A stretch of 64,000 bases of DNA from a virus. Below are positions 2,164-64,000 of this stretch, piece after piece (positions within the stretch are counted from its first letter, which is position 1; every line of letters begins with the position of its first letter). Under the pieces are notes generated by a model. It searched no databases and was not told the DNA's origin. It saw nothing but the letters and a program-made list of their open reading frames with translations. A program made the position numbers and the translations under genes. The DNA is taken from positions 96,001-160,000 of IMG/VR virus record IMGVR_UViG_3300017991_000003. One strand, written 5' to 3'.

Positions 2164-2186
2164 CTGGCACTGGGTGCCAGTGCCAG
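2164..2186. repeat. palindromic element copy 1 (CTGGCACTGG-GTG-CCAGTGCCAG), perfect 10-bp arms
   Basis: read directly; lies 7 bp upstream of ATG 2193. Confidence 0.8.
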
Positions 2187-13641: not shown

Positions 13642-14069
13642 CCGGCCGCCTGATCCTCCTGCTCACGCTCGTCAGCTGTGCGGTGTTTCAGCCGGACGAG
13701 CTGTCGATGACCTATGAGCGCGGCTTCGGCCACTATGATGCCGACCCCTGGGAGGCGCCGATCTCGGAGGATCAACACACGATCGGGTTCGGTTTGACGT
13801 GGTACATCGGTACCACAATGCCACCGGCTAGGGCTGCTGTTCTTCAGCCAGGCCTGCTCGAGGATGACGAGCCCCCTAAACCGGCCCCACCCCAGCCGCC
13901 CGCCAGTGTGGCACCGGCTACCAGTGCCACAGAGCCGTACAGCCCGGCCATGGATCGGGCCCTGATCTACCAGATCACCACGCTGCTCGGTGCGTTCGTG
14001 GTGGCTTACCAGAACCGTCAGCGCCTCCCAGGCGTGAAGAAGGCCTCGGACGAGGGGAGCGCTGAATGA
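13638..14069 (+). CDS. Pro-rich putative lipoprotein (143 aa)
   Basis: GTG start overlapping upstream stop (GTGA); signal peptide with lipobox LVSC; Pro-rich linker. Confidence 0.45.
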   Translation: MTGRLILLLTLVSCAVFQPDELSMTYERGFGHYDADPWEAPISEDQHTIGFGLTWYIGTTMPPARAAVLQPGLLEDDEPPKPAPPQPPASVAPATSATEPYSPAMDRALIYQITTLLGAFVVAYQNRQRLPGVKKASDEGSAE

Positions 14070-21981: not shown

Positions 21982-23907
21982 ATGCGTCCGCGCGCTTGGC
22001 TTACACTTTTGGACGTGGCTACGATCAAGAACACCCCGCAGAGCGAGCTCATCGAGAGCCAGACCTGTCCCTCGGCTCTCCAGGAGCTTGTGGACCTAGT
22101 AGATACCCAGCTGGAGACCGTCCTAGGGCCGCTGGGGTTCGATCTAGAGATCATCTACGCGGAGATCAAGGGCAAGCAGGCGGGGGATCTCTGGGACGCG
22201 GTGGTGACGGGCCCTCTCGAGGCGGCAGGCTCGGCGGTGGAGGAGGCGTTCGGATACGACCCGACGTCCATCTCAGCTAGTAAGGCGGAGATCGAGAACG
22301 CGCTCACGGCCATCGTGGATCCGAACAACATCCTGGCGGCCCTCACCCCAATCAAGGAACTAGGCGGGGCGCTCCTGTCTACGGACAAGCTGGTAGAGGG
22401 GGATCTGAGCCCTACGGGGCTGATCAACCAGATCCTGGACCCGACCAAGGAGAAGCAGCTCGACGGTCTTACCGAGTGCAATGAGAACGTGGTCACGGCC
22501 ACGGCGGCAACGATCACTCAGGTTGTAGCCGGTGCGGCTAACGAGGTGCTCAAGAAGGTGGGGGCAGCTCAGTCGATCCTCAGCATGGGTATGTCGCAGC
22601 TGGAGAACTTCGGCGAAGGCCTCTTCCTGCTCGCGGGAGACGCGCTGAACACGGTTCACAACGCTGAGATCATTCTTATCGACCAGATCCTCGACGTCCT
22701 CGTTGAGATGCGAGCGCTGGTGGAGGAGATGGGGAACGAGCCCTTCGGTTTCAACCACTCCAAGGTGGTGCAGGCGGCTCAGACCAACCTGCTCCAGGCG
22801 GACTCCCTCCTGTCGGCGGTCCAGGCAAAGATCGAGACTCGAGCGGGGTTTGACGGCACCTCCTACGACGCGGCTCGATCGATCATCCAGTACGTAGAGG
22901 AGCTCTTGTGCGAGGCGTCAGATGAGTTCGATCTCGGCTTTAGCTCGAAGCCGTATCGACTCCTGTCCCTGGTCTTGACCCTCGAGGCCTACCAGGCTCT
23001 CTGGTATGCCCGGGCTCAGAAAGGGGAGAGCAGCGCGGAGGGGTTGATCAGCTTCCCTGGCAGCCTGCTGAGCCAGCTCCAGACGGATAACTTCTTCTCC
23101 CCGATCATCGCTCTGGTTCGTTGCCAGTTGAACAAGGTGATCCAGGACATGGCGGATACGGACATCCGCGGCGAGCTCCTGCTCTACATCACCAAGGAGA
23201 AGAAGTGGTGCCTCGAGCTCAAGGTCCTGAACGAGACGATGAAAGCCTCGCGCAGCCTTCTTGAGGCGGGAGATGAGGCAGCCGAGTTCTCGGATCTGAT
23301 CCTGGAGGGTGTGGAGACCTACGAGGATACCAAGAAGCTGGTTACAGCTACCGCAGCCGAAGCGCAGGAAAGCATCACAGATGTCCTCACCTACGCACGA
23401 CTCAAGGTCCAGAACCAGTTGACCCCCACTAACCGAGTGACCTCTCGAATCGACGAGGCGGTATCCATCCTCACGCTTCGACGCTCTCAGATCCAGGCGC
23501 AGAGCCAGGCGCTCCTCAGCCTGCTCGGCTTGGGTAACACTGATTTCCTGCAAGGGCTGGCCTACGCCAAGCAGTTCGCAGAGTTCCTATCAGGCAAAGG
23601 CCTGGACGCCATGCTAGGGAGCCTACTTGACGGGGACTTCGACGGTGTCTTCGGGGCTGACGCCTTGACAGCCTCGATAGGCGGCAAGGTAGAGGCCTAC
23701 GCCACCAAGGTCCTCGGCTGTCTAGACACCCAGGACCCAAGCGCGACTGACAAGCTATACACAGTAGCAAAGCAGGCCAACGACGATCTTCGGGCCCAGG
23801 ACGTGCTCGTCAATCTCATCGACGGCTCTGCTTCGCTGTTTGCTCAGGGGGCGCTACTTGAGGCGCAAGAGCGCAGCGTCGACCTGAGCACGATCGAGCT
23901 AAGCTGA
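21982..23907 (+). CDS. large hypothetical protein (641 aa), L/A/E/Q-rich, probably alpha-helical
   Basis: ORF track; ATG 21982; palindromic element overlaps its stop. Confidence 0.6.
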   Translation: MRPRAWLTLLDVATIKNTPQSELIESQTCPSALQELVDLVDTQLETVLGPLGFDLEIIYAEIKGKQAGDLWDAVVTGPLEAAGSAVEEAFGYDPTSISASKAEIENALTAIVDPNNILAALTPIKELGGALLSTDKLVEGDLSPTGLINQILDPTKEKQLDGLTECNENVVTATAATITQVVAGAANEVLKKVGAAQSILSMGMSQLENFGEGLFLLAGDALNTVHNAEIILIDQILDVLVEMRALVEEMGNEPFGFNHSKVVQAAQTNLLQADSLLSAVQAKIETRAGFDGTSYDAARSIIQYVEELLCEASDEFDLGFSSKPYRLLSLVLTLEAYQALWYARAQKGESSAEGLISFPGSLLSQLQTDNFFSPIIALVRCQLNKVIQDMADTDIRGELLLYITKEKKWCLELKVLNETMKASRSLLEAGDEAAEFSDLILEGVETYEDTKKLVTATAAEAQESITDVLTYARLKVQNQLTPTNRVTSRIDEAVSILTLRRSQIQAQSQALLSLLGLGNTDFLQGLAYAKQFAEFLSGKGLDAMLGSLLDGDFDGVFGADALTASIGGKVEAYATKVLGCLDTQDPSATDKLYTVAKQANDDLRAQDVLVNLIDGSASLFAQGALLEAQERSVDLSTIELS

Positions 23908-23926
23908 CACTGGGAGGGAGTGTCAG
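23904..23926. repeat. palindromic element copy 2 (CTGACACT-GGGAGGG-AGTGTCAG)
   Basis: overlaps stop codons of the convergent genes 21982-23907 and thyX. Confidence 0.8.
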
Positions 23927-27823: not shown

Positions 27824-28084
27824 ATGAGTGACGCAACCAAGCAGAGGAGTCTGGATCGAGAACTGTGTGGCGTTCCACGCTACGAGCTGTGGCTGGAGTA
27901 CCCTGAGAGCGATTCATGGAGGTGCCTTGATCTGCGGCAAGAGCATCGCTTCAGCAGCAAGAAGAAAGCCTTCCAAGACGCTAAGTACTACACCCAATGG
28001 CATCCAGATCGTGGACGTGCCTGCGTGTTCGATCGTAAGACAGGACATGTCATAGCGGTTTTCTACCCGGAGCAAGGCAAATGA
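27824..28084 (+). CDS. hypothetical protein (86 aa)
   Basis: ORF track; preceded by a 9-codon mini-ORF that duplicates the start of the next gene. Confidence 0.4.
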   Translation: MSDATKQRSLDRELCGVPRYELWLEYPESDSWRCLDLRQEHRFSSKKKAFQDAKYYTQWHPDRGRACVFDRKTGHVIAVFYPEQGK

Positions 28085-28332
28085 GTAAGAAGATGAGCTC
28101 GGCTGTGGCCGAGGCTTTGAACATCAAGCGGGCTCATCGAGCCATCACTGCGCTCGCCGCGTACAAGCAAACGCAGCTCGGCGAGTCTGGTCCTGTGTGT
28201 CGGGATACCCTTGTTGACCTGTTGGTTGATCTGCGGCACGCGCTGGACGTCGTGGATCTAGGCATCACGCTCGAAGAGGCTCTTCGGATCTCCGAGGACC
28301 ACTACACCATCGAATCCGCCGAGGCCGAGTAG
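28081..28332 (+). CDS. hypothetical protein (83 aa)
   Basis: ORF track; GGAG upstream. Confidence 0.45.
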   Translation: MSKKMSSAVAEALNIKRAHRAITALAAYKQTQLGESGPVCRDTLVDLLVDLRHALDVVDLGITLEEALRISEDHYTIESAEAE

Positions 28333-28366
28333 CCTCACAACCCTGGGACCTAGGTCCCTTTTAGCC

Positions 28367-30778
28367 ATGCACCGAGCCACACTCATTACCACCGTCCCCA
28401 ACCTCCCCAAGTTCATCCTACGCGGCGTTGTACCACTGCCGCGTGGCTACACATTCGGCGGACCCGGCCAGGACTGCCCTTTTACCATCAAACACCCCCT
28501 GCTGGATGAGAACTGCCCGACGCAGTGGCAACCGGTAAGCTACTACCCGTCGGAGGTGGGACAGGACGCCGAGGTCGCGTCGGCCGAGATTCTTGCCGTG
28601 ATCGACCGCGATGATCTTCCGCCGGGTGTGCGCGCCTTCTTCCAGCTACATGAAGAGGCCAGTGCCTGGTCGTACCCCGAGCCGGCCACCGAGGCGATCC
28701 TGATGACGCAGATGAAGGACGCGGTGCGTCTGCGCGCTACGGATTTCTTCGGCAACGTCTACGAGGCATCCCTGTCTCGCAACATGTTTGCGCAGGTCCC
28801 CGGAGGCCCGAGCGGGCTACCCACCGGTCCGGGAACGATCCTCGACACGCGGACGCATCGCATGGGCTGTGCGATGGGCACGGTGGAGACACACGGGTGG
28901 CTTGACAAGAAGGGCCCGGGTACGGCGGAGGCCCTGCCGTGGTTCTTGGGCTGGCAGGCATTCTTCTCTGTCCGCACCGGCTCGGACGTGGTCGAGCTCG
29001 CGCTCAACGTGCACAACGCCTTCAGCCCTCCCAAGAATCTGTCGGACCCTGCGGGCCATATGTACTTCAAGGAACTCAGCCTGGTGGTGCCCAAGGGCTG
29101 GGCGATCATGTCGGAGTGGCCAGAGCCGTCGATGGGTTCTCCGAAGCCTGATGACAACGACGCCTTCTACGTCATCCCGCTGGTGGCGGCCAATGAGGAC
29201 GGCACGATGCATATGATGGCGCAGCAGGCGGAGCGGGAGTGGCGCCTAGTCCTCTTTGAGGAGGGGAACCAGAGCAACGCACAGGAGGTGCTCAACCAGT
29301 ATGGTTGGGCTGTCCCCGCGCACGACACTGCCGAGGCGGGCCTTGAGAATCCCTGGTGCTGGCAGAACGAGGAGACGGGGAACTACCAAGCACAGCGTTT
29401 CCCGGTCCCGTCCCTGGACCCGCAAGCCTGCCTGGAGCGCACCCTCGTCGAGTACTCGAAGATCCGGGCGGCGTTGGCCTCTCGTACGGCGGTGCAGTAC
29501 CCCGACGCCAAGCCTTATGGTTACTTCCATCCCTACGGCGTGTCCTATGGTGGCATGACTGGGGGCAGCGAGATCTTCCCCTTCGACGGTCTCGTGGAGC
29601 TTACGGCCGGGTCGGTCGAGGGCTTGCTCTACACCCGAGCGCTGCACTTCATGTACAGCTGTCGTCAGCAGGGGATGATCTACAACATCAAGGGCAAGCC
29701 GACCCGCTTCGAGGACTACCTCAAGGATGGGACGTGCGACTGGCACTACCTCAACGCCAAGTGGTATCCCGGCTATGACGGGGACTACGACTTCCTGAAC
29801 GCTGTCTCGACACACCGGCCGGCCATCGAGGCCGCGGGACAGCTCCCGGTCTACGAGCCGCAGGTGACTCGCGAGTATGGCAGCTACTCTTCGTACTATC
29901 AGCCGCAGGACTTCCAGCACTACGTCCGACGCACGCGTAGCTGTCGGACGCTGGCGTGGCTGGACAACGACCCGCTAGCCAAGCGCAAGCTCGAGATGCT
30001 CGCCGAGATCGGGCTGATGTGGTACCACGACATGCCGAGCAACTCGGCGGCCGGCGTCTTCGGCCACCTCTCCACGGAGATCACCGACGGCGGCGACGGC
30101 ATGACCATCCCCGAGGGGCGTGGCGCTGCTTGGGTCATGGACACGGCGGCCGCGGCCTATGCCGTAGGTGAGAAGAGCTGGCGAGACCGCGCTGTCGTCC
30201 GCTCCTGGTTCGAGGCGGTGACCTTCGTACTACGCTCAAGCCTGACCCCGGCCGGCATCTGTCAGGGCTACCGCAAGGGCAAGATGGTCACCATGCACCC
30301 CTTCCTGGGGCAGTACGTCGTCTGCCACCCGTTCGAGCAGGGCCTCCTAGCCCACGGCATGCAGGCCATCCTCAAGTCGGTGTGTGAGGGGCTCGAGGGC
30401 GCCGAAGAAGGACTCTGTCGTGAGTTCCTCCAGATCCAGGCTGATGGGCTGGCCCGCTACATGTGGCGTGACGGTACTGGCGGCGCGTGGACGAAGATGG
30501 CGGTGGGCCCACTCGATGGTGAGCCCTTCGAGTCCATTGACGAGGTCCCCGAGGACGGGTTCTATGGCCCCTACCCCGAGGTCTGGCAGATCGTTCCCGG
30601 CATGGCCTACGCGCTGGCCGATCCCGAGCTCTCCAACGTGACGCGCACCGCACTCATGGCTCGGGTCACGGACTATGCTGGCGGGCACCCGGATCCTGTG
30701 GAGTGGTTCGAAGGGCAAGGCCTGAAGATGATCGAAAACCGGGCGCCGCTGCTTGCATGGCTCCAGTTGAACGACTAG
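28367..30778 (+). CDS. large hypothetical protein (803 aa), W/Y/G-rich; possibly enzymatic or structural
   Basis: ORF track; ATG 28367; followed by hairpin plus T-tract terminator. Confidence 0.65.
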   Translation: MHRATLITTVPNLPKFILRGVVPLPRGYTFGGPGQDCPFTIKHPLLDENCPTQWQPVSYYPSEVGQDAEVASAEILAVIDRDDLPPGVRAFFQLHEEASAWSYPEPATEAILMTQMKDAVRLRATDFFGNVYEASLSRNMFAQVPGGPSGLPTGPGTILDTRTHRMGCAMGTVETHGWLDKKGPGTAEALPWFLGWQAFFSVRTGSDVVELALNVHNAFSPPKNLSDPAGHMYFKELSLVVPKGWAIMSEWPEPSMGSPKPDDNDAFYVIPLVAANEDGTMHMMAQQAEREWRLVLFEEGNQSNAQEVLNQYGWAVPAHDTAEAGLENPWCWQNEETGNYQAQRFPVPSLDPQACLERTLVEYSKIRAALASRTAVQYPDAKPYGYFHPYGVSYGGMTGGSEIFPFDGLVELTAGSVEGLLYTRALHFMYSCRQQGMIYNIKGKPTRFEDYLKDGTCDWHYLNAKWYPGYDGDYDFLNAVSTHRPAIEAAGQLPVYEPQVTREYGSYSSYYQPQDFQHYVRRTRSCRTLAWLDNDPLAKRKLEMLAEIGLMWYHDMPSNSAAGVFGHLSTEITDGGDGMTIPEGRGAAWVMDTAAAAYAVGEKSWRDRAVVRSWFEAVTFVLRSSLTPAGICQGYRKGKMVTMHPFLGQYVVCHPFEQGLLAHGMQAILKSVCEGLEGAEEGLCREFLQIQADGLARYMWRDGTGGAWTKMAVGPLDGEPFESIDEVPEDGFYGPYPEVWQIVPGMAYALADPELSNVTRTALMARVTDYAGGHPDPVEWFEGQGLKMIENRAPLLAWLQLND

Positions 30779-30824
30779 ATTGAGGGTCGATCGCAGGTAG
30801 GCATCTGTGGTCGGTGTAGAGGTA

Positions 30825-30863
30825 GGCCCGGTACCGCACGCAGCGGCGCCGGGCCTTCTTTTT
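30825..30863 (+). terminator. rho-independent terminator-like hairpin plus T-tract
   Basis: GGCCCGG...CCGGGCC followed by TTCTTTTT after stop of 28367-30778. Confidence 0.55.
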
Positions 30864-30865
30864 AG

Positions 30866-30888
30866 CTGGCACTGGCTAGGAGTGTCAG
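30866..30888. repeat. palindromic element copy 3 (CTGGCACT-GGCTAGG-AGTGTCAG)
   Basis: sits between a plus-strand and a minus-strand hairpin terminator at a convergent junction. Confidence 0.8.
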
Positions 30889-30912
30889 TAAAAAGAGAGC
30901 CCCGAAGGGCTC
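30889..30912 (-). terminator. rho-independent terminator (minus strand)
   Basis: GAGCCC-CGAA-GGGCTC hairpin followed on minus strand by TCTTTTT. Confidence 0.6.
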
Positions 30913-30944
30913 CGGCCCCTGAGGGCTCCGGCCCCGCAGGGGGC

Positions 30945-31286
30945 CTACTGGTCTCGGCGCTTCTTGAGATCCTCGATCCAGCGGGAGACCGCTTCGATCA
31001 TCTCGTACGGCACGCCCTCGTGCCGAAGGATCGCCTCGGCATCGGCGATCTGCTGGTTGAGCTCCGGGCGGGCCAGCTCCGGTTCGGGCTCCGGCTCCGC
31101 CGTCTTCGCGGTGCTGGCGCCGCAGGCCGCGAGACCCATGACGGCCTCGCCGACCTTGGCGATCTCGCCCGCGAGCTCGACGACGTTCCCCTCGAGCTCC
31201 CAGCTCGAGGCGCTTTTGAGGACCTCGCGACCGTCATCGGTCAGGACGGTGAGGGTGTAGGCGGGGATGTTGATCGAGATTTTCAT
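30945..31286 (-). CDS. hypothetical protein (113 aa)
   Basis: internal ATG 31286 (MKISIN); own promoter-like motif, conserved leader hairpin and terminator. Confidence 0.5.
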   Translation of the reverse strand: MKISINIPAYTLTVLTDDGREVLKSASSWELEGNVVELAGEIAKVGEAVMGLAACGASTAKTAEPEPEPELARPELNQQIADAEAILRHEGVPYEMIEAVSRWIEDLKKRRDQ

Positions 31287-31305
31287 CTGGGTGGGTGGTG
31301 GTGAT

Positions 31306-31335
31306 GGTGTCTCCGGAGTAGACATCTCCGGATCA
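31306..31335 (-). promoter_or_regulatory. conserved 5' leader element with hairpin (stem TCCGGA/TCCGGA, loop GTAGACATC)
   Basis: aligns with the 46202 and 47869 copies; stem differs by a compensatory pair of substitutions. Confidence 0.55.
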
Positions 31336-31337
31336 CT

Positions 31338-31348
31338 AAACACATGCC
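31338..31348 (-). promoter_or_regulatory. promoter-like motif copy, variant (AAACACATGCC)
   Basis: 52 bp upstream of ATG 31286. Confidence 0.4.
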
Positions 31349-31385
31349 CCACAACCCCCTCTTAGTTGCTGTTTCAGGTACCAGC

Positions 31386-31407
31386 TAAAAGAGGGGCCGA
31401 AGCCCCT
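31386..31407 (-). terminator. rho-independent terminator (minus strand)
   Basis: AGGGGC-CGAA-GCCCCT hairpin with TCTTTTAG on minus strand. Confidence 0.5.
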
Positions 31408-31429
31408 AGCCGGCTTACGGGCCGGCGAC

Positions 31430-31627
31430 CTAGCTCACGATAGCGGCATAGAGTGCACCTGATCCCAGGGCCATCCACAGGATGACACCCACGATCATGG
31501 CTCCGATGAAGAGCCAACTCACAGTCGCCTCATACCAGTCGGCGTCCGCGCCGGGTCTGAGATCCTCTCTGCCGCGGATCAGCCACGGGATGAACTTGAA
31601 GGCCATGACGAGGGCGAAGGCCAGCAT
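31430..31627 (-). CDS. small membrane protein (65 aa)
   Basis: ORF track; two hydrophobic segments; hairpin terminator downstream. Confidence 0.4.
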   Translation of the reverse strand: MLAFALVMAFKFIPWLIRGREDLRPGADADWYEATVSWLFIGAMIVGVILWMALGSGALYAAIVS

Positions 31628-31662
31628 AGGAGCCCAACTACCCAGCAGAACAATACCATGGT

Positions 31663-32067
31663 CTATACCTCCTCCTCGAAGAGCTTCCAGACCTCGAAGT
31701 CGCTGAGCCGGCGCCTCGAGCCGTCCTGCATGACCCAGCAGGGATCACCCATCACATCGAACTGGGCCAGCGTTACGCGGTCGTTCACGTCATGCCACGT
31801 CTGGGCTACATGCACCGGGTGAGACCGGAGCGTCGTCGGCACGACCCGGGGCAGGACCTGGTCCGTGCGGCTCCACAGCTTGGTGGATGGCGTGCGGCTG
31901 AAGGTCAGCTGACCGTCCAGCAGGATCTTCTCGAGTCGACGAACGTCCTCAGCCATTCGGTCCTCACCAGCGGCCTCAAGGCTTTCTCGATCGGCAGCCA
32001 GCATCTTGTAGAGCAGGGTGACAAGCTCGAGTTCCATCTCGAAGGCGAAGATCGCTGTGTTACTCAT
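31663..32067 (-). CDS. hypothetical protein (134 aa)
   Basis: ORF track; ATG 32067. Confidence 0.45.
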   Translation of the reverse strand: MSNTAIFAFEMELELVTLLYKMLAADRESLEAAGEDRMAEDVRRLEKILLDGQLTFSRTPSTKLWSRTDQVLPRVVPTTLRSHPVHVAQTWHDVNDRVTLAQFDVMGDPCWVMQDGSRRRLSDFEVWKLFEEEV

Positions 32068-32118
32068 CGGGCATCTCCAGGCTCTGGAAGCAGTCTTCGG
32101 TGCGTTTTCGGATAGTCA

Positions 32119-32355
32119 TCAGGAGTCCTCGTCAAGCGGCCCAAGACCGAAGAAGTCGGGATCACAGGCGAGGGCTTCACAGGCCTCGTGTGCCGCTGCT
32201 TCGGTCAGGATGCGGTGTTCCAGGACTTCCCAGGACAAGGCCCAGTCGCCCTGTTCGCTTTCGCGAACCATGTGCTCCAGGCTCGTGGCCTCCCACCTCA
32301 TATCCCCTTCGGGAACGAGGAGGGTGACCGCGATCTGGATCTTCTGAAGGCCCAT
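32119..32355 (-). CDS. hypothetical acidic protein (78 aa)
   Basis: ORF track; start overlaps upstream stop. Confidence 0.4.
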   Translation of the reverse strand: MGLQKIQIAVTLLVPEGDMRWEATSLEHMVRESEQGDWALSWEVLEHRILTEAAAHEACEALACDPDFFGLGPLDEDS

Positions 32356-33530
32356 TAGAAGGCGATCTTCTTGAGGACCTTGCCGCCGGCCGTCTCGAGG
32401 GTGACCTTCTTGTCGCCGTGCGGGATGTCCCGCGCCAGCTCCGTCAGACCACCGACGAACGCCCAGGCCGTGAGGGGATCGCCGTAGCGGTCCTCACGCT
32501 CAGCAGCACGATCGAGCCCGTCTCGGATCAGGCCGAGCGGGAGCCCGAGCTTCTTGTCCGAGAACAGGAAGTCCTCGGCCTCGTCACGATCGTCGCCCAG
32601 CCTGAACCGGCGAGCCGCCTCGATGGCGTTCTCCTCCGTATCCGTTCGGCTGTTCATGTAGTTCGTGACCTTGCCGCGGGCCTCACCCCAGCGCGCTTTG
32701 ACGCTGCCGACGTGACGCAGGCGGAACTCGAGGCTCTGCTGCACACCCCAGATGATGTGGTTGCCGCAGACGCCATCGAAGATGAACGCGAGGCCCACGA
32801 GGGCACCGTCGCCCACCTCGGAGTTACGCCAGATCATGCCGCGCATGAACCTGTCCTCCTCCCCGAACGAGCGCTCGGGGTGGACCATCAGGAAGAAGCA
32901 GTCGTGGTCCGACACGTAGACACCGGCGGGGGCGATCATGTCCCCCTCCTTCACCTGGATACCGCCCTTGTTGCCCTCGATCAGATCGTCGGCCGTAGCC
33001 GGGCGGGCACGCGGGTCGTCGGGGTTGGCCGGCCGTGCCGGCGGGACCTTCCAGCCCAAGTTGGTGAAGGGTAGCAGCCTGTCGGCCACCTCCCAGTTCC
33101 AGATGCGGGCGTACCGGTCAGACGTCCACGAACGCAGCGTCAGGACGTCCTCCCCGTCCTGGTGGAAGAGGAGCTGCTTGACGGGTTCGTCGTCGACGTC
33201 CTGGGCTTGGAGGTTGTAGTTGAGGTTCTGCGCGGCCATGGAAGTCGGCAGCCGGCGCATGTAGTCGGCAGGAACCCGCATGGATCGGCACAACTGCCCA
33301 AAGGCGTAGTGCGTCATCATCGCGGGCTGCCCGTTGGCGCCGACTAGGCGTAGGTCACGCTGGCCTTCGTCGCCCACCTCCCGCACACGCAGGACGCTGG
33401 GACGAGCAGCTGATTCGATAGCACGCTCGGCGTGCTCGTAGGCGGCGACGCGCGCTTCTTGAATGGTCCAGAAGCGCTCATCGTCAGGGCGGGTGAGCCA
33501 TTGGCTCGCCGCGGTCATGATCTCGGTCAT
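32355..33530 (-). CDS. hypothetical protein (391 aa); weak resemblance to DUF932 phage/plasmid family
   Basis: ORF track; ATG 33530; motifs VSDHD and VCGNH recalled as DUF932-like, not verified. Confidence 0.55.
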   Translation of the reverse strand: MTEIMTAASQWLTRPDDERFWTIQEARVAAYEHAERAIESAARPSVLRVREVGDEGQRDLRLVGANGQPAMMTHYAFGQLCRSMRVPADYMRRLPTSMAAQNLNYNLQAQDVDDEPVKQLLFHQDGEDVLTLRSWTSDRYARIWNWEVADRLLPFTNLGWKVPPARPANPDDPRARPATADDLIEGNKGGIQVKEGDMIAPAGVYVSDHDCFFLMVHPERSFGEEDRFMRGMIWRNSEVGDGALVGLAFIFDGVCGNHIIWGVQQSLEFRLRHVGSVKARWGEARGKVTNYMNSRTDTEENAIEAARRFRLGDDRDEAEDFLFSDKKLGLPLGLIRDGLDRAAEREDRYGDPLTAWAFVGGLTELARDIPHGDKKVTLETAGGKVLKKIAF

Positions 33531-33542
33531 ATTGTCCGTGGG

Positions 33543-33896
33543 TTAGATATCACAAGGACCCCAGTACAGCCGCTTGCGACGACGTGTTGAGAGGCCTGGG
33601 GGCGGTCGCAGTGTGGGGTCTTGCTGTAGCGCGTCGTACATTAGGTCTTGTACCTGCTCGCCTAGCTTGATTTCTGTGACCCCGTTCCTGGAGCAGAAGA
33701 AACCAGAAGCGCCCTGCTCGTAGGTTTTCAGGACTGCGGTGTAGCGCACCGCGATGAAGGTCACGACATCCGGAAGATCAAAAGTCTTCAGGAAGTCGTG
33801 GATGAGTTGAGCGGCAAACTGAGCTACGCCGTGTTGATCACCGTCGATACGTAGCCAGACATGTTGTGGGAGTGGCCTCTTGTCTTGATCGAGCAT
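33543..33896 (-). CDS. hypothetical protein (start ambiguous)
   Basis: ATG 33896 chosen; ORF-track start 34073 would give an 8-nt overlap with the upstream gene and is equally possible. Confidence 0.4.
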   Translation of the reverse strand: MLDQDKRPLPQHVWLRIDGDQHGVAQFAAQLIHDFLKTFDLPDVVTFIAVRYTAVLKTYEQGASGFFCSRNGVTEIKLGEQVQDLMYDALQQDPTLRPPPGLSTRRRKRLYWGPCDI

Positions 33897-34065
33897 GGTA
33901 GGCTCAATAGTGATGATCAGGTCTTGCTGCGGCGTGCCCGCTCTTGGAGTCGCGCTGACGGAGTGCCTTTGATCTGTGCCGGGCCGCCATTGAGCGATCT
34001 GTTGCTGCCACCACTGAACGTGCGCTGGCGCTGGGGCGGGTACGGAGGTGCAGAGCTGTGTGTAC

Positions 34066-36411: not shown

Positions 36412-36450
36412 TCTAAAAAGAGAGCCCAACCCGAGGGGGTTGAGCTCTCT
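36412..36450 (-). terminator. strong hairpin plus T-tract terminator ending the tRNA transcription unit
   Basis: 13-bp stem with one mismatch (GAGAGCCCAACCC / GGGTTGAGCTCTC), followed on minus strand by TTTTTAGAC. Confidence 0.6.
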
Positions 36451-37003
36451 GGAAGTGCCCGGGCCCGCCCCTTTCATCGCAGTCCAACGAGTGGGACAAG
36501 GGGGATGCCGTAAGGGCCCGGGCTTGTAGGTGCGGAGCCGTGCCAGGATCACGGCCCCGCGGTGCTGTGGAAGTAGCTTGGCCCCCCAAGGAGGTGGGAT
36601 GAGCCGCCGTAGCTACGATGAGGCTCGCAGTCGGGCATGGTGCTACCCGGCCAACAGCGTGGCGATACGCCGAGACCCGGATCGCCGCCGGATAAGGTGG
36701 CCCCCGTCGTGACGTGCTCAGCTCACGCTCGAGGGGTTGGAAGACCTGCCATCTAGGATCAGTGGGATCCCCATCCCTTTGCACTCCTCGGAGAGTGTGC
36801 CGCTCCTGCGGCTGATGTGATGGCAGGTGGAAGACACCCACAGGTAGCAAGAACCGGCCTGGATGACCTCTTCGTTGCCCTAGGACCGGGGTCAGAGCCT
36901 TCCGGGCGCGCCTGTGGGTGATTGGGAAAGCCGAGCACGTCATCAACGCCGCTTGTGCGTCTGCTTGGTTGGTGGAGACGTGTGACGCTGCTCGGCTTTT
37001 GTA

Positions 37004-37090
37004 TGGTGCAGGAAGGGGGACTCGAACCCCCACGCCCGGGTGGGCACGTGGACCTAAACCACGGGCGTCTACCGATTCCGCCACTCCTGC
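37004..37090 (-). tRNA. tRNA-Leu (anticodon TAG)
   Basis: cloverleaf read by hand on minus strand: acceptor GCAGGAG/CTTCCTGC, anticodon loop TTTAGGT, long variable arm, T-arm GGGGGTTCGAGTCCCCC, encoded CCA. Confidence 0.8.
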
Positions 37091-37164
37091 ATGTAAAGGC
37101 ATCGATGACCCGTGGGAGAGTTTCCCCACTCTGTGTTGAGCCCACAGATCATCGATGTGATTGA

Positions 37165-37250
37165 TGGTGCGGGAGGAGGGACTCGAACCCTCACGCCCGA
37201 AGGCAGTGGATTTTGAATCCACCGTGTCTACCGATTCCAACCACCCCCGC
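37165..37250 (-). tRNA. tRNA-Leu (anticodon CAA)
   Basis: acceptor GCGGGGG/CTCCCGC, anticodon loop TTCAAAA, long variable arm, T-arm GAGGGTTCGAGTCCCTC, encoded CCA. Confidence 0.8.
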
Positions 37251-39109: not shown

Positions 39110-39541
39110 TTACAGCGAATCCAGGGCATCTAGGGCGTCTGTGAGGCCCTCAGCAGCCTCTTGAGCAGCGTCCGCCTTGGCGCTCTTCTTCCGCTTCTTC
39201 CCCTTCTTCTTGTGATGCAGGGCGGCCAGGCGAGCCCCCTGCTCCCGCTGAGCGTCCGTCACGGACTCCTCGCATAGGGTCTTGTACTCCGCCTCGGTGG
39301 GGATGACGCCCTCGGGTCGCGTCTTGGTGTCCGCGTAGGGGCGGTGGGCCCAGAAGAAGCAGACGTGGTCCGGGCAGTTCTTGATGGCGTCCCGGTAGCC
39401 CTCGTTGCCGACACAGGCTCGGCAGTTGAGGTCGACAGCGGATCGGAGGCTGCTACCGTGATCAGCTTTGACGGCGACGGTGGGGCGGGCGAGGCGGACG
39501 TCGTTCTCGACGCAATCGATGATGTCAGGCTTGGTGGTCAT
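39110..39541 (-). CDS. hypothetical protein with Cys pairs and K-rich C-terminus (143 aa)
   Basis: ATG 39541; palindromic element lies immediately 5' of the start. Confidence 0.45.
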   Translation of the reverse strand: MTTKPDIIDCVENDVRLARPTVAVKADHGSSLRSAVDLNCRACVGNEGYRDAIKNCPDHVCFFWAHRPYADTKTRPEGVIPTEAEYKTLCEESVTDAQREQGARLAALHHKKKGKKRKKSAKADAAQEAAEGLTDALDALDSL

Positions 39542-39543
39542 GT

Positions 39544-39566
39544 GTGGCACTGGCTAGGAGTGTCAG
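39544..39566. repeat. palindromic element copy 4 (gTGGCACT-GGCTAGG-AGTGTCAG)
   Basis: divergent region; immediately 5' of ATG 39541 (minus) and just upstream of a TTGACA hexamer preceding the GroES-like gene. Confidence 0.75.
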
Positions 39567-39625
39567 GGTGGGAAAACTGTCTCCATATCTTGACAGAGGG
39601 GCGCCGGCTAGGCACGATCCCTGGC

Positions 39626-40141
39626 ATGGAAACGACAACGACAGAGGCCCGCCCTGAGCTACAGCTTCGGCCGTTGGCCGGGCGGGTGATGATTCGAGTG
39701 GACGAGGCCCCCACGATGAGCGCAGGTACGCGAGGCCGTCAGGTCTATCTACCCGAGAGCGTCCAGAAGGAGGAGAAGGCGAACTACCGGTTCGGTACGG
39801 TCGTGGCCCTAGGGGACCCCGCGCTGCATCCGAAGACCGGCAGGCCGATCCCGTGGGCTGTGCATGTAGGCACCAAGGTCTGCTTCCAGTTCGGGGCTGA
39901 CCTTACAGGTGAGCGAGAGCTCCAGTACACAGGAGGCGTGGCCCATGCGGTGTGCTTTGCTGAGGATCTGATTTACGCCATCGAGGATGATTATGAGATT
40001 CAGCCGACTCCCGTATGCCCCAACAGCGTAGGGGTTGCGCTACGCCGCGCTCTGATGAACGACGACTGGCTGACCGAGGAGCAGGTTGACACCCTGAGCC
40101 GGCGGCTCGCGTGCACGATTGCCGGGGTTGTGCCCGCGTGA
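39626..40141 (+). CDS. GroES/Cpn10-like protein with C-terminal extension
   Basis: LRPLAGRVMIRVDE...SAG...GTVVALGD...VHVGTKVCF pattern resembles co-chaperonin GroES; internal ATG 39626. Confidence 0.45.
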   Translation: METTTTEARPELQLRPLAGRVMIRVDEAPTMSAGTRGRQVYLPESVQKEEKANYRFGTVVALGDPALHPKTGRPIPWAVHVGTKVCFQFGADLTGERELQYTGGVAHAVCFAEDLIYAIEDDYEIQPTPVCPNSVGVALRRALMNDDWLTEEQVDTLSRRLACTIAGVVPA

Positions 40142-46198: not shown

Positions 46199-46201
46199 GG
46201 T

Positions 46202-46243: not shown

Positions 46244-46245
46244 TT

Positions 46246-47076: not shown

Positions 47077-47099
47077 CTGGCACTGGCTCCCAGTGTCAG
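47077..47099. repeat. palindromic element copy 5 (CTGGCACTGG-CTC-CCAGTGTCAG); likely also a bidirectional terminator
   Basis: flanked by AAAAAAGAAGG upstream and TCTTCTTCT downstream at a convergent junction. Confidence 0.75.
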
Positions 47100-49805: not shown

Positions 49806-52800
49806 ATGGCTGAGTTCAAGGACTGCCAGAGCCCGAGCCCCCTGACCGGGCGGATCGGCCCCGATCTGATCGAAGAGGTTGGCGGGGTCTCTCTGGCAGG
49901 TGTGTTGGCAGGCACGGAGACGCTGCCGGTTGGTGCAATCCCTGTCACAGCCCCGCTTTATGACAGTCCGAGCCCTACAGGTACGGCTATTGGACTGCGG
50001 TTGGATTCGAGCCTGACGGTTGATGCCCAGGGCCGGCTCAGTATTGCTGGAGCCCCATCGCCCGCGGCCCACGCCTCGAGCCACGAGCCTGGCGGGTCTG
50101 ATCCGATCACCCCTGCTGCCTTTGACGGGCTTATCACCCCGCCGGTCGCCACGACGGTTGTCCTTGGCGGTGTCAAGGACGGTGACGGCGTCTCGATCGC
50201 CGGTGACGGCACCCTGACCCTCGATCTGGCCGCCGCCAGTGGCCTCGAGATCAGCGGCGGGACCCTGAGACTGGCACTGGGTACCGGTGTCAGCTTCAGC
50301 GGCAACGATCTGGTCCTGGACGAGGCCACGGACTCCACGCTGGGCGGCATCATCGCCGGCACGGGTCTATCAGTCAGCTCGGGTACGGCGAGCCTCAACG
50401 CCCCCCAAGTCACGGGAGCCTCCCTAGCGGGCAGCACTCTGGTCTGGGATACCAGCCCGAGTGCCCAGAGTCCCAGCCCTGCTCTGAGGCTTCCGGCGAG
50501 CTTCACGTACACCAAGGCGATCCCGCAGTCGCAGCTGCCGACCGCGGCCTACGGCAGCCCGGGCAGCTCGAGCCCCAGCCCGCAGCTCGGCCTTGTCCGC
50601 ATCTATGGCCCGAGCGAGGGCCTGACGCTTAGCGATGGGCTCCTGTCGCTGGCGACTCCGATCAGCACGGATCACCTACCCACCGCTACTGGTCTAGGTG
50701 GGCGAGGCATCGTCCGCGCGGGCCTACTTGACGGTACGGGCGTCTACGTCTCCAACAGTACGACCGGCCAGCTGGCGATCCTGATTGACGCCACGTCGGA
50801 CACGTTGGCGTTGTCGTCGAGCGGGATCAAGGTCAAGTCCAATCGCTTCCTGGCGCTGACTGGCACCGGTAACCTCCCCAGCCCCGCGGCGAGCCCGAGC
50901 CCGGGGACTGACGGCTGGATGACCGGGTCGGTTCGATTCACCAACGACCTGGGTGAGCCTGCGATCCGCACCGGTAACCAGCGGATCCGCTACGAGTTCG
51001 GGGCCAGCCCGTCTCCCGGGGCGATCCTGGCATCGGCTGATCTAAGCGATCTACTAACGTACCAGGAGATCAGCACACTCATCTCCCAGGCTGAGCTTGG
51101 TGTCGAGGTTTGGACTCCTGGGCGACCTGTGCAGGCAGAGCCGGGTACGAGCCTAGGTGCGTTGGCGGAGCTCTCGGCCGGGGATCGGTTCCTTACGAGC
51201 ACGTCGTCCAACACCAACCCCGGCGGTGACTGGAATGCGCACAACTGCGTGTTCGCGGTCTGGACGGAAACGGCTCCCGATACCTTTACCTGGGTCTATG
51301 AGACCCCCACGGTCAACACCTGGTTCACAGACGACGTAACTGGGGACACGTGGGCTGTTGTTGTCGGCTCCCCCTCCCCGAAGTCGCCCTCACCGAACCC
51401 GTCGCGAGAGGCTTTCCGGTATCGCGCTCGTCAAGATGACACAGCATCGACGGCCCGAGCTGGTCGCGTGCGTGTCCCGACGACCAGTGGCCTCGTCATG
51501 GACGGCGAGGATATTCGGCTATCCCTCGCCTCGGACATCGGGGTCAGTACGGGCCTGCGTCTGATCACCCGAGCTCGCAACAACGCGCTAGCTCTCGATC
51601 TCAGCCGGTCCCAAGGGATCTTGGAGCTCAACTCCGACGGGCGCCTTCAGGTTGCCGCGTCCTCGATCCAGGCCACGGAGATCGCGGACAACACCATCGT
51701 CCTCGACAACCTGGCCGCGGATCAGGTGACAGGCGGTACCAAAGACTTCATCGCCACGCAGTACGACGGGCTATCCGTCCGGCTGGTGGGGGACTCGGAA
51801 GACTTCCGCGTCACTGGGGCGCCTGTCAGCACGGCTACGACCATTCTGATCCACACCGAGGACGGTATCGGTGTGGCGGAGGAGTCGATCAACACTGACG
51901 CTCTCTCGGACGAGGCGGTTAGCTACAGCAAACTCCTGATGCCCACGGCCTCCGGTCTGGAGGACAACGGGCAGGACAAGGTCCGGGTCAAGCTCCAGAC
52001 CCGCAGCGGCCTCGAGCGAACGGTGGATGGCCTGGCGGTCAACATCCATGACGTGGTGGACGATGCCACGATTGAGCTCGACACATCCACGGGCGGCTTG
52101 CGCGTCAAGACAGGTAGCCTGACGTCGTCGTACTTCGCGTCGGGCCTGGCGATCTCGGCCTCGGTCCTCACGCTGGGAGCCCCTATGCTCTCGTCGAGCG
52201 GGCTCCTGACCTTCTGCTACCAGAGCCCTCTGGTCCTGACCGGCAGCCCCGGCTGCTTGACGATCGGCGAAGGCTTGATCAGCTCGCCGTATCTCGGCAC
52301 CGGGTCGGTCAGCTACGCCAAGCTCAAGCTGGCGAGCCCCTCCGGCATCACGCAGACGGCCGGCGGTATCAAGGTCGACATCTCGACGGGTCTCGCCTTC
52401 AGCGGCAACCAGATCGTGGTCGACCAGGTGCCGGCAGACGCGATGGCACTGGATGCGGATTCGGCGTTGTACGCCGCTAGCCCGACCAGTCCGCTGACGC
52501 AGCTGGAGCTGAGCATCCGGGTCAGCAGCCCGTTCACGCAGACGGGTGGTACGCTGGATCTAGCGGACGAGGGTGTTCAGGTGAGTCACCTGGATCGCTC
52601 CAAGCTGCGCGGTAGCTTCCTGGCCAGCGGCCTCGAGGCCGGCCTAGGTACCCAGACCAGTCCCTTCGACTCTTGGGTCACGAGCCCGGCGTTCTACACC
52701 GGCTCGGACGCCCCGGGTATGCGGGTGGCTACGCGGACGCGATCCGATCACGACTACCTGGATGCGGCGGGTCAGGGACAAGGCACGTTCGAGCCCTATA

Positions 52801-63819: not shown

Positions 63820-63842
63820 CTGGCACTGGTACCTAGTGTCAG
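63820..63842. repeat. palindromic element copy 6 (CTGGCACT-GGTACCT-AGTGTCAG)
   Basis: overlaps stop of the HTH gene 63839-63988 and abuts the promoter-like motif of the next gene. Confidence 0.8.
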
Positions 63843-63988
63843 CCTTCGTACAGCTTCTGGACCGATGTCCCCAGCGCCTTGGCGATCTTGCTCATGGTCG
63901 GCCACTTAGGGATGAAGCGGCTGTGCTCGGCAGCGTTGATGTACTGACGCTCTTTACCTACACGTCGACCCAGCTCAGCTTGGCTCAT
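63839..63988 (-). CDS. XRE-family (Cro/CI-type) helix-turn-helix regulator (49 aa; may extend beyond window edge)
   Basis: hand-translated MSQAELGRRVGKERQYINAAEHSRFIPKWPTMSKIAKALGTSVQKLYEG; classic HTH_XRE pattern; not in ORF track. Confidence 0.55.
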   Translation of the reverse strand: MSQAELGRRVGKERQYINAAEHSRFIPKWPTMSKIAKALGTSVQKLYEG

Positions 63989-64000
63989 ATTTTTAGCCTC

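What the first reader, a model, noticed from the sequence alone, without database searches (positions are those of the whole stretch)
30866..30888. Six-copy 23-bp palindromic element CTGGCACT-N7-AGTGTCAG in intergenic positions
Copies at 2164-2186, 23904-23926, 30866-30888, 39544-39566, 47077-47099 and 63820-63842. The arms are nearly invariant while the central 3-7 nt vary, the signature of a dimeric DNA-binding site or a stem-loop. Context differs: three copies sit at convergent gene ends, one abuts a promoter-like motif just downstream of an HTH gene, and two sit directly in front of start codons. In four copies the arms pair with one G-T (G-U) mismatch in the same orientation. Copy 5 is flanked by an A-tract and a T-tract and could double as a bidirectional terminator.
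Basis: seen in the sequence. Interest (0 to 1): 0.65.

Follow-up and report, generated by a model that had tools for sequence, protein, structure and literature searches.

The report
Dispersed 23-bp palindrome of a jumbo phage
An uncultured large phage carries at least 14 copies of one 23-bp palindrome, between genes and in-frame inside genes. Related phages keep it at the same places with both arms changed together, so it is most likely the DNA recognition site of a still unidentified dimeric protein and not a generic hairpin or a host repeat.

Summary
All six listed copies exist. The window holds two more, at 13908 and 50271, both inside genes (8 sites against 0.02 expected by chance). The window is part of a ~175-kb metagenomic phage contig. 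Four more copies lie just past the window end in a 3406-aa gene, and two lie upstream, giving at least 14.

It is not a host repeat: 185,579 species genomes gave only scattered single hits.

Three related phages (56-64% amino-acid identity) carry the element at six shared positions with lineage-specific arms: CTGRCAC, CTGGYAC and CTGATAC. The spacing never changes (7-bp arms, 9-bp gap, in all 23 copies found by the spacing scan). Copies inside genes arose by substitution without indels, and 9 of 10 sit in the same reading frame. One copy lies in a pocket between two convergent terminators. The strand carrying G·T wobbles is not conserved.

This favours a duplex-DNA site for a symmetric, co-evolving protein, acting genome-wide like stoperators or KorB operators, over an RNA stem-loop. 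No binding protein was identified. The candidates are a conserved 66-aa XRE HTH protein and a C4 zinc-finger protein. The biological role is inferred, not shown.

The parts
2164..2186 (.). Copy 1, CTGGCACTGGGTGCCAGTGCCAG: a perfect palindrome with 10-bp arms. It lies between genes 1552-2112 and 2193-4247, 6 nt before ATG 2193 and 25 nt after a TATACT -10-like hexamer (2133-2138).
13908..13930 (.). New copy, GTGGCACCGGCTACCAGTGCCAC, inside gene 13638-14069 (+). It starts at codon position 1 and encodes V-A-P-A-T-S-A-T.
23904..23926 (.). Copy 2, CTGACACTGGGAGGGAGTGTCAG. It fills the 15-bp gap between the convergent genes 21982-23907 (+) and ThyX 23923-24780/24864 (-). Both stop codons (TGA) lie in its arms. 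Relative 1 has a copy at the same site (L038 5959, plus a second at 6030).
30866..30888 (.). Copy 3 (the flagged one), CTGGCACTGGCTAGGAGTGTCAG. It lies in the convergent gap between the 803-aa gene (ends 30778) and gene 30945-31286 (-). Relative 1 has a copy at the same site (L038 12502).
30824..30864 (+). Intrinsic-terminator-like hairpin plus T-tract for the + strand operon (-27.3 kcal/mol), ending just before copy 3.
30889..30913 (-). Intrinsic-terminator-like hairpin plus T-tract for the - strand operon, ending just before copy 3 from the other side. Together with the previous part it leaves copy 3 in a pocket that should be little transcribed.
39544..39566 (.). Copy 4, GTGGCACTGGCTAGGAGTGTCAG, in a divergent control region. 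It lies 2 nt from the start codon (39541) of the C4 zinc-finger gene 39110-39541 (-) and 23 nt upstream of the -35 of the rightward promoter. Relative 1 has a copy at the same site (L038 21040).
39590..39628 (+). Conserved promoter TTGACA-17-CACGAT, followed 7 nt later by ATG 39626, the start of the Cpn10-like gene 39626-40141. The transcript is apparently leaderless. The block is conserved in relative 1.
47077..47099 (.). Copy 5, CTGGCACTGGCTCCCAGTGTCAG, between the convergent genes 46358-47062 (+) and 47115-47483 (-). Its A-tract and T-tract flanks extend the hairpin, making it a plausible bidirectional terminator. Relative 1 (L051 7568, plus 7618) and relative 2 (L054 1609) have copies at the same site.
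50271..50293 (.). New copy, CTGGCACTGGGTACCGGTGTCAG, inside the 1262-aa gene 49806-53594. It is in frame 0 and encodes L-A-L-G-T-G-V-S. It was made by substitutions: the relatives align here without gaps but have no site.
63820..63842 (.). Copy 7, CTGGCACTGGTACCTAGTGTCAG. Its right arm holds the stop codon of the XRE HTH gene, and it lies upstream of the hairpin and promoter-like motif at 63778-63811. Relative 1 (L051 17938) and relative 2 (L054 16735) have copies at the same site; relative 3 does not.
63839..64000 (-). 66-aa XRE-family HTH gene. It runs to 64039, just past the window end. It is conserved in all four phages and is a candidate binding protein.
39110..39541 (-). 143-aa C4 zinc-finger protein (CxxC...CxxxxCxxWxxRP) with a basic tail and no Pfam family. 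It is the first gene of the leftward operon and abuts copy 4. It is the second candidate binding protein.

Best explanation
The element is a genome-wide set of recognition sites on duplex DNA for one sequence-specific, two-fold-symmetric (dimeric) DNA-binding protein that co-evolves with this phage lineage. Each site is two inverted half-sites, [C/G]TGRCAC(Y)GG, held at a fixed distance (23 bp overall).

The protein is probably phage-encoded. There are two candidates: the conserved 66-aa XRE HTH protein, whose stop codon lies in copy 7, and the C4 zinc-finger protein, whose start codon abuts copy 4.

My committed reading of the role is as follows. The bound protein acts as a global transcription barrier or regulator. 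It insulates the ends of convergent operons, sits in or beside three control regions (copies 1, 4, 7), and blocks or paces transcription through very long late genes. This is functionally like mycobacteriophage stoperators or the KorB operators of plasmid RK2.

What is shown:
- The sites are real and enriched.
- They are specific to this phage lineage.
- They are conserved in position.
- Their dyad symmetry and spacing are under selection.
- Copies inside genes were created by substitution.

What is inferred:
- That the ligand is a protein binding duplex DNA (about 0.55-0.6).
- That the role is transcriptional and not genome organisation or partition (about 0.3 against 0.2 within that).
For: 1. 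Enrichment. There are 8 sites in 64 kb against 0.02 expected, 12 sites in 75.6 kb of contiguous genome, and 2 more upstream on the same IMG/VR contig.

2. Not a host repeat. The species-genome scan gave 31 scattered single hits with no homology to the window. The metagenome scan gave 118 single unrelated hits.

3. Positional conservation with concerted arm change. The five intergenic syntenic sites are conserved in relative 1 or relative 2. The sixth shared site, inside the giant gene, is shared with relative 3. The arms are CTGRCAC (window), [C/G]TGG[T/C]AC (relatives 1 and 3) and CTGATAC (relative 2). On the 27-copy alignment, 86.5% of arm cells are complementary. There are 22 double-sided changes against 11.8 in shuffles, exceeded in 0 of 500 shuffles.

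4. Rigid geometry. Every one of the 23 copies that the spacing scan found in the four genomes has exactly 9 bp between its 7-bp arms. This holds even where the centre cannot pair, as in GGCTAGG and GGGAGGG.

5. Copy 3 lies between two convergent intrinsic terminators, and the arrangement is kept in relative 1. An RNA-level role is therefore unlikely at that copy.

6. In-gene copies arose without indels, by substitutions that change amino acids. The site at codon 822 of the giant gene is shared by the window and relative 3, with arms changed in concert (LTLVASAS against LVLVAGTS). The site at codon 1343 has moved by 2 codons. Nine of 10 in-gene copies are in the one frame that encodes small residues (P about 4e-4).

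7. Arm mismatches include A·C, A·A and T·T. The strand that carries the G·T wobbles is not conserved.

8. A conserved 66-aa XRE HTH of the CylR2/PbsX type is present. From my own knowledge, CylR2 of this size binds a 22-bp inverted repeat as a dimer.
Against: No binding protein has been identified.

The HTH recognition helix is identical in relatives 1 and 2, although their half-sites differ. Relative 3 has the HTH gene but no copy next to it.

No ParB, KorB or other classic global-site binder was found among 83 proteins.

The conserved cores of the two half-sites are about 15-16 bp apart, roughly 1.5 helical turns. That is unusual for a simple HTH dimer.

A palindrome is also a hairpin in either transcript, and copy 5 looks like a true bidirectional terminator.

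The phage's lifestyle, temperate or lytic, is unknown. A stoperator-type silencing role therefore has no independent support.

Only about 93 kb of a genome of at least 175 kb was examined.
Confidence: 0.55

Rival explanations
1. The element is an RNA stem-loop. It is a conserved hairpin in the transcripts that acts as a terminator, a processing site (of the RNase III or Cas6 kind) or an mRNA-stabilising 3' structure, perhaps recognised by a sequence-specific RNA-binding protein.
For: - The arms pair, folding at -8 to -17 kcal/mol for the better strand.
- Four of the seven intergenic copies are at convergent 3' ends.
- Copy 5 has an A-tract, a hairpin and a T-tract, folding at -30.1 and -25.6 kcal/mol.
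- Covariation of both arms is seen.
- Because the arms are palindromic, either transcript forms nearly the same hairpin.
Against: - Copy 3 lies between two terminators and should be little transcribed.
- The overall length is fixed at 23 bp even when the centre is unpaired. Loop length in functional hairpins usually drifts.
- On the transcribed strand, copy 7 and the four giant-gene copies have A·C mismatches and fold at only -2.6 to -10 kcal/mol.
- Relative 1 copies carry A·A and T·T mismatches in the arms.
- Only one copy has a U-tract.
- Half of the copies lie inside ORFs, where termination or cleavage would be harmful.
- There is no Rfam match.
Confidence: 0.2
2. The copies are binding sites for a host transcription factor that the phage has recruited, for example an HrcA/CIRCE-like regulator. 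On this view the arm changes between phages track different hosts.
For: - The half-site CTGGCACTG matches the CIRCE half-site TTAGCACTC at 6 of 9 positions (from my knowledge of the CIRCE consensus).
- Copy 4 is upstream of a Cpn10 (GroES-like) gene.
- Phages are known to carry host-regulator sites, for example CtrA sites in alphaproteobacterial phages (PMC9437464; title and abstract seen).
Against: - The spacer is 5 bp against 9 bp in CIRCE. No true CIRCE exists in the window.
- Only 1 of 14 copies is near a chaperone gene.
- Copies at convergent ends and inside structural genes make little sense for a promoter-specific host factor.
- No species genome shows even two copies in an 8-kb locus.
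Confidence: 0.1
3. The element is a polar, replication-linked signal, or a single-stranded-DNA hairpin (for example a fork barrier, a priming signal or a translocase guide). On this view the G/A asymmetry marks direction.
For: - All seven heterotypic copies up to 63.8 kb have one polarity, and the four beyond 67.9 kb have the other.
- GC skew changes sign at the same place.
- The window copies are more evenly spaced than random (CV 0.385, P = 0.008).
Against: - Polarity is not conserved at the same sites in relative 1.
- The four reversed copies are all in one gene, where codon choice (Thr/Ala against Ala/Val) can explain the polarity.
- The 13908 copy breaks the pattern.
- The even spacing fails once the giant-gene cluster is included.
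Confidence: 0.07
4. The element is a miniature mobile palindrome of the REP, MITE or PATE kind, spread by a transposase.
For: Copies within one genome resemble each other more than they resemble copies in the relatives. Relative 1 has tandem pairs and one extra duplicated copy (L052 7157 and 7568).
Against: - Six sites are syntenic across phages that share only 56-64% amino-acid identity.
- In-gene copies align with the relatives without any indel, so they were not inserted.
- At 23 bp, the length is not a multiple of 3.
- No Y1/RAYT or other transposase was found among 83 proteins.
- There are no flanking target duplications.
Confidence: 0.03

Closest known systems
Stoperators of Cluster A mycobacteriophages (L5 gp71-type immunity repressor)
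   Same: One short sequence is repeated many times across a phage genome. The copies lie mostly in short intergenic gaps or overlap stop codons, as copies 2 and 7 do here. The sequence co-evolves with the repressor between related phages. Binding stops elongating RNA polymerase as well as repressing promoters (PMC9283540 and PMC6550527, abstracts seen).
   Different: Stoperators are 13-bp asymmetric sites bound by a monomer, and they are oriented with transcription. This element is a 23-bp palindrome. Half of its copies are inside ORFs. The phage is a large uncultured one of unknown lifestyle, and no repressor homologue has been linked to the sites.
KorB operators (OB) of IncP plasmid RK2, and ParB-parS centromere sites, including the dispersed sites of prophage N15 (from my own knowledge)
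   Same: These are dispersed perfect or near-perfect palindromes bound by a dimer. Some lie at promoters, and others lie far from any promoter or inside genes. They serve global regulation, partition or both.
   Different: OB is 13 bp and parS is 16 bp. They need a ParB/KorB-family protein, and none was found among the 83 proteins scanned. Only part of the genome was seen.
Conserved 17-bp palindromes of Cluster O mycobacteriophages, and similar family-specific phage repeats (from my own knowledge; not checked in a paper here)
   Same: These are family-specific, multi-copy, dyad-symmetric motifs in phage genomes, with conserved arms and a variable centre. Their function is unknown.
   Different: The sequence, length and phage group differ. 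To my knowledge, in-gene, in-frame copies with site turnover have not been described for them.
CIRCE operator / HrcA (TTAGCACTC-N9-GAGTGCTAA; from my own knowledge)
   Same: It is an inverted repeat of 9-bp arms sharing xTxGCACTx with this element's arms. One copy here lies upstream of a GroES-like gene.
   Different: The spacer is 5 bp here against 9 bp in CIRCE. No real CIRCE is present in the window. Thirteen of the 14 copies are unrelated to chaperone genes.
REP elements with RAYT transposases
   Same: These are short palindromes of about 20-35 bp, repeated in intergenic DNA, often at convergent gene ends. Their sequence is genome-specific.
   Different: REPs belong to bacterial chromosomes, number in the hundreds, vary in length, and are linked to a RAYT gene. 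Here there is no RAYT, the length is fixed, the positions are syntenic, and in-gene copies were made by substitution.

Membership tests
Stoperator system (Cluster A mycobacteriophages) | A 13-bp asymmetric site (GGTGGMTGTCAAG-like), oriented with transcription. | tested here: not met
   The element is a 23-bp palindrome with no such sequence.
Stoperator system (Cluster A mycobacteriophages) | Many copies across the phage genome, in short intergenic gaps or at stop codons. | tested here: met
   There are 14 copies. Seven are intergenic, and copies 2 and 7 contain stop codons.
Stoperator system (Cluster A mycobacteriophages) | Bound by the phage immunity repressor, blocking elongation. | not testable with these tools
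   This needs EMSA, ChIP and transcription assays.
ParB-parS / KorB-OB | A ParB/KorB-family protein is encoded by the element. | tested here: inconclusive
   Pfam found no ParB domain at a significant score among 83 proteins of the window and its flanks. There was only a sub-threshold HTH_ParB hit to the XRE protein, at E = 0.009. About half of the genome was not seen.
ParB-parS / KorB-OB | A 13-16-bp palindrome of the family consensus. | tested here: not met
   The sequence and length differ.
CIRCE / HrcA | 9-bp arms TTAGCACTC separated by exactly 9 bp. | tested here: not met
   There are no matches at up to 3 mismatches. The element's spacer is 5 bp when read with 9-bp arms.
CIRCE / HrcA | Located between the promoter and the start of chaperone operons. 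| tested here: not met
   Only copy 4 is near a Cpn10 gene, and it lies upstream of the -35.
REP / RAYT | An associated Y1 (IS200-like) transposase gene. | tested here: inconclusive
   None was found among the 83 proteins scanned. The genome was only partly seen.
REP / RAYT | Copies arise by insertion and are not conserved in position. | tested here: not met
   The sites are syntenic, and the codon alignments have no indels.
Intrinsic (bidirectional) terminator | A GC-rich hairpin followed by a U-tract on the transcribed strand. | tested here: not met
   Only copy 5 has the tracts. At copy 3 the tracts belong to separate flanking terminators. Copies 1, 2, 4 and 7 have none.
Sigma-54 promoter (TGGCAC-N5-TTGCW) | A -12 TTGC placed 5 nt after the -24 TGGCAC. 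| tested here: not met
   Reading the copies directly shows no TTGC at the required spacing.
Known RNA families (Rfam 15) | A match at the gathering score. | tested here: not met
   Only two tRNAs matched in the window.

The most novel reading that the evidence does not exclude
A previously unknown global DNA-binding system of an uncultured jumbo-phage lineage. A lineage-specific dimeric protein reads about one 23-bp palindrome per 6 kb. Selection for these sites is strong enough to rewrite codons inside structural genes, with the sites turning over like enhancer motifs. The sites organise, silence or partition the whole phage chromosome, possibly with a polarity tied to replication direction.
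Probability: 0.2. Interest if true: 0.7.

Novelty: new variant of a known kind. Interest (0 to 1): 0.5.

Why it matters
Regulation in uncultured large phages is almost unknown. Nearly every large protein tested here has no Pfam or PHROG match.

A short motif that is conserved in position, changes in concert in both arms between relatives, and is written into coding sequence gives a direct handle on the regulation. It defines a binding site that can be used to pull out its protein by DNA affinity or DAP-seq. It marks transcription-unit boundaries in an otherwise unannotated genome. It also offers a natural series (CTGRCAC, CTGGYAC, CTGATAC) for studying how a protein and its many sites change specificity together.

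If the sites act as roadblocks or organisers, this would extend the stoperator/KorB principle to a new phage group and to symmetric sites placed inside genes.

Tried and rejected
- Known phage: there was no DNA or protein match for the region or for the 803-aa protein. No Pfam or PHROG hit was found for seven of the ten proteins tested.
- Host repeat: rejected by the species-genome scan.
- Sigma-54 promoter: the TGGCAC is present, but there is no -12 element.
- CIRCE: the spacing is wrong and no real CIRCE is present.
- Rfam: no family matched.
- Mobile element: rejected on synteny and on the indel-free codon alignments.
- Identifying the binding protein through co-variation of the XRE HTH recognition helix: not informative. 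Relatives 1 and 2 share the helix but differ in half-site, and relative 3 lacks the adjacent copy.
- More HTH homologues with genomic context: the word-indexed search returned only the query itself. IMG/VR gave one extra relative.
- IMG/VR searches with alignments of the 803-aa and 1262-aa proteins found nothing.
- AlphaFold of the zinc-finger protein without an alignment gave pLDDT 46 and is unusable. Its family of 118 clusters has no Pfam or PDB relative.
- Distant homologues of the 803-aa protein turned out to be cellular genes with no element nearby.
- Leftward promoter at copy 4: it could not be placed, so it is unknown whether that copy is transcribed.

Full report
**Observation**

The pattern CTGGCACT-N7-AGTGTCAG, allowing up to 2 mismatches, hits seven places in the window against 0.09 expected from dinucleotide-preserving shuffles. 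A slightly degenerate form, STGRCAC-N9-GTGYCAS, hits eight places exactly against 0.02 expected.

Two copies were missed, and both lie inside genes:
- 13908-13930 (GTGGCACCGGCTACCAGTGCCAC), in gene 13638-14069.
- 50271-50293, in the 1262-aa gene 49806-53594.

The stated contexts are right. Copies 2, 3 and 5 sit in convergent gaps. Copy 2 holds the TGA stop codons of both flanking genes in its arms. Copy 1 ends 6 nt before ATG 2193. Copy 4 ends 2 nt before the minus-strand ATG at 39541. Copy 7 holds the stop codon of an XRE HTH gene and precedes a hairpin that carries a promoter-like motif. Six of the eight window copies fall in the 4.6% of the window that is non-coding (P about 2e-7).

**Where the window comes from**

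The window has 62% G+C, many small genes, two tRNA-Leu genes, a phage sigma factor (PHROG 351), an exonuclease, ThyX, and Cpn10-like and DUF932 proteins.

The region 28000-34000 has no DNA match to any deposited phage, and its 803-aa protein has no protein match either. Exact-protein look-ups place the window on a 174,660-bp ENA contig and on JGI metagenome 3300018080 contigs.

An IMG/VR contig of 91.6 kb from that same metagenome overlaps window 1-7022 at 100% identity. It carries two further copies upstream, L001 6134 (intergenic) and L003 5735 (in a gene).

Extending past the window end (L046) reveals a 3406-aa gene with four more copies, at about 67900, 68323, 69520 and 71083 in window numbering. 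At least 14 copies are therefore known in about 93 kb examined.

Most genes lack a Shine-Dalgarno sequence. Sigma-70-type promoters are present, for example TTGACA-17-TATCTT at L046 8428-8456. The nearest cultured relatives of the exonuclease are Synechococcus and Bacteroidota phages, at about 36% identity. The host is unknown.

**Not a host repeat**

An exact scan of one genome from each of 185,579 species gave 31 scattered single hits in unrelated taxa. That is about the number expected by chance. None had a second relaxed copy in its locus or any homology to the window.

IMG/VR gave only this phage plus two single hits.

**Relatives**

Three related phages were recovered through homologues of the 803-aa, 1262-aa and HTH proteins:
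- Relative 1: L038-L041 and L051-L053, about 60% amino-acid identity.
- Relative 2: L054, 56% identity.
- Relative 3: L056, 58-63% identity.

They carry 23-bp palindromes at the same places:

| Site | Window | Relative 1 | Relative 2 | Relative 3 |
|---|---|---|---|---|
| 641/663-aa gene / ThyX gap | 23904 | L038 5959 and 6030 | not covered | not covered |
| Gap after the 803/806-aa gene | 30866 | L038 12502 | not covered | not covered |
| Divergent zinc-finger / Cpn10 region | 39544 | L038 21040 | not covered | not covered |
| Gap after the GT25 genes | 47077 | L051 7568 and 7618 | L054 1609 | not covered |
| 3' end of the HTH gene | 63820 | L051 17938 | L054 16735 | absent |
| Codon 822 of the giant gene | 69520 | absent | not covered | L056 4457 |

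The arms differ by lineage. They are CTGRCAC...GTGYCAG in the window genome, [C/G]TGG[T/C]AC... in relatives 1 and 3, and CTGATAC...GTATCAG in relative 2.

On the 27-copy alignment, T2, G3, A6, C7 and their partners are invariant or nearly so. Overall, 86.5% of arm cells are complementary. There are 22 cells with changes on both sides against 11.8 in shuffles, a value reached in 0 of 500 shuffles. Because related copies share ancestry, this test shows that dyad symmetry is maintained. It does not show that a hairpin forms.

**DNA site or RNA hairpin**

Several results point to duplex DNA:

1. The distance between the 7-bp arms is 9 bp in all 23 copies that the spacing scan found in the four genomes. 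This holds even where the centre cannot pair, as in GGCTAGG and GGGAGGG.

2. Copy 3 lies between two convergent terminator-like hairpins with U-tracts (-27.3 and -16.3 kcal/mol), one for each incoming operon. Relative 1 keeps this layout. That copy should therefore be little transcribed.

3. In-gene copies align with the relatives' genes without any gap and differ by substitutions that change residues. An example is CTG ACA CTG GTT GCC AGT GCC AG in the window against CTG TCG TTG GTT AGC ACA CAG AG in relative 1. At codon 822 the window and relative 3 both have a site, but with their own arms. At codon 1343 the site has shifted by two codons. Nine of 10 in-gene copies start at codon position 1, the frame that yields Leu/Val-Ala/Thr/Val-Leu/Pro...Ser/Gly/Thr-Ala/Val/Thr-Ser/Thr (P about 4e-4). 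The exception is L003 5735.

4. Copy 7 and the four giant-gene copies have A·C mismatches on the transcribed strand (-2.6 to -10 kcal/mol). Relative 1 copies tolerate A·A and T·T.

5. All copies within a genome share one arm sequence. A generic hairpin does not need that. It implies a sequence-reading factor acting in trans.

The in-situ origin and the synteny also rule out a mobile REP/MITE-like element. No Y1 transposase was seen among 83 proteins.

**What it probably does**

The positions are as follows:
- Four convergent operon ends.
- One divergent control region. Copy 4 lies 23 nt upstream of the conserved, apparently leaderless promoter TTGACA-17-CACGAT-7-ATG at 39590-39628, and 2 nt from the start of the leftward operon.
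- Two tandem unit boundaries (copies 1 and 7).
- Seven places inside ORFs, four of them in the first 4 kb of a 10-kb gene.

One bound protein acting as a barrier or regulator of transcription throughout the genome could account for all of these. That is the principle of stoperators (PMC9283540, PMC6550527) and of KorB operators (from my own knowledge). A genome-organising or partition role of the parS or matS type fits the in-gene and 'quiet pocket' copies equally well and cannot be separated from it here.

Copy 5 alone also has the anatomy of a bidirectional intrinsic terminator.

**Candidate binding proteins**

Two candidates were found:
- The 66-aa XRE HTH (window 63839-64039) is conserved in all four phages and is of the CylR2/PbsX type.
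- The 143-aa C4 zinc-finger protein with a basic tail (39110-39541) has its gene abutting copy 4 both in the window and in relative 1. Its family of 118 clusters has no Pfam or PDB relative.

Neither is established. The HTH recognition helix does not track the half-site changes, and relative 3 has no copy next to its HTH gene. A second HTH gene (45373-45573) lies in an insertion that is absent from the relatives, so it is unlikely to be the factor.

**Unexplained**

- The polarity of the G/A asymmetry switches between 63.8 and 67.9 kb, where GC skew also changes sign.
- Copies within the window are more evenly spaced than random (CV 0.385, P = 0.008).
- It is not clear why copies cluster in the 5' third of the giant gene.

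**Verdict**

This is a real, strongly non-random, lineage-specific and positionally conserved 23-bp dyad element. It is best read as the duplex-DNA site of an unidentified co-evolving dimeric protein (about 0.55). An RNA-hairpin role is the main rival (about 0.2).

It works like known dispersed operator systems but meets the defining features of none of them. I rate it a new variant of a known kind, with interest 0.5.

Noticed in passing
window 471, 12398, 21970, 36391, 39084, 46247, 47914, 63793 (+ strand coordinates of GACTYATG/GACTCGTG): A second recurring motif. Read on the minus strand it is G(G/T)CAT(A/G)AGTC, lying about 35-55 nt upstream of minus-strand start codons and followed by C/A-rich leaders without a Shine-Dalgarno sequence. 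It may be the promoter type of the phage's own sigma factor. At 63786-63804 it sits in the loop of the hairpin next to copy 7, and it is conserved in relatives 1 and 2.
   Followed up: partly
window 46217-46243 and 47884-47910; variant at 31308-31334: A 27-nt exact repeat, TGTCTCCGGGTAGACATCCCCGGATCA. It forms a hairpin, TCCGGG-N-CCCGGA, in the leaders of three minus-strand units, between the motif above and the start codon.
   Followed up: partly
window 39590-39628; L038 21081-21124: A conserved promoter, TTGACA-17-CACGAT, with ATG 7 nt after the -10. The Cpn10-like gene (39626-40141) therefore appears to be leaderless. The automatic gene call at 39716/39717 is probably too short.
   Followed up: partly
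window 8938-9711: A phage-encoded RNA polymerase sigma factor (PHROG 351 at E = 9e-19; Pfam Sigma70_r3).
   Followed up: partly
just upstream of the window: L045 898-2001: A reverse transcriptase (RVT_1) gene lies about 0.25-1.35 kb upstream of window position 1. It is possibly a diversity-generating retroelement or a retron. No template/variable repeat pair was looked for.
   Followed up: no
beyond the window end, about 67054 onwards (L046 1-6340, minus strand of that locus): A giant 3406-aa gene with a tail/baseplate-like N-terminus. It is conserved in relatives 1 and 3 at about 58-64% identity. GC skew turns negative across it.
   Followed up: partly
window 13799-13816: An 18-bp palindrome, GTGGTACATCGGTACCAC, built from relative-1-type half-sites at the wrong spacing (4 bp instead of 9). 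It lies in the same gene as the 13908 copy and may be a decayed or nascent site.
   Followed up: no
window 37004-37090 and 37165-37250 (-): Two tRNA-Leu genes (anticodons TAG and CAA) lie inside what the ORF list shows as ORF 36413-37351. That ORF is probably not a gene.
   Followed up: no
window 44940-46244 (-): A four-gene minus-strand block that includes a second 66-aa XRE HTH (45373-45573). It interrupts the glycosyl-/methyl-transferase operon and is absent from relatives 1 and 2, so it is a lineage-specific insertion.
   Followed up: partly
whole window: Most genes have no Shine-Dalgarno sequence, and many start codons follow C/A-rich stretches such as ccaccacccATG. This suggests a host with little Shine-Dalgarno use. 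The best exonuclease hits are to Synechococcus and Bacteroidota phages.
   Followed up: partly
window 28367-30778: The 803-aa protein has no Pfam or PHROG family. It does have homologues at about 30% identity in cellular genomes, in non-phage contexts (L042, L049).
   Followed up: partly
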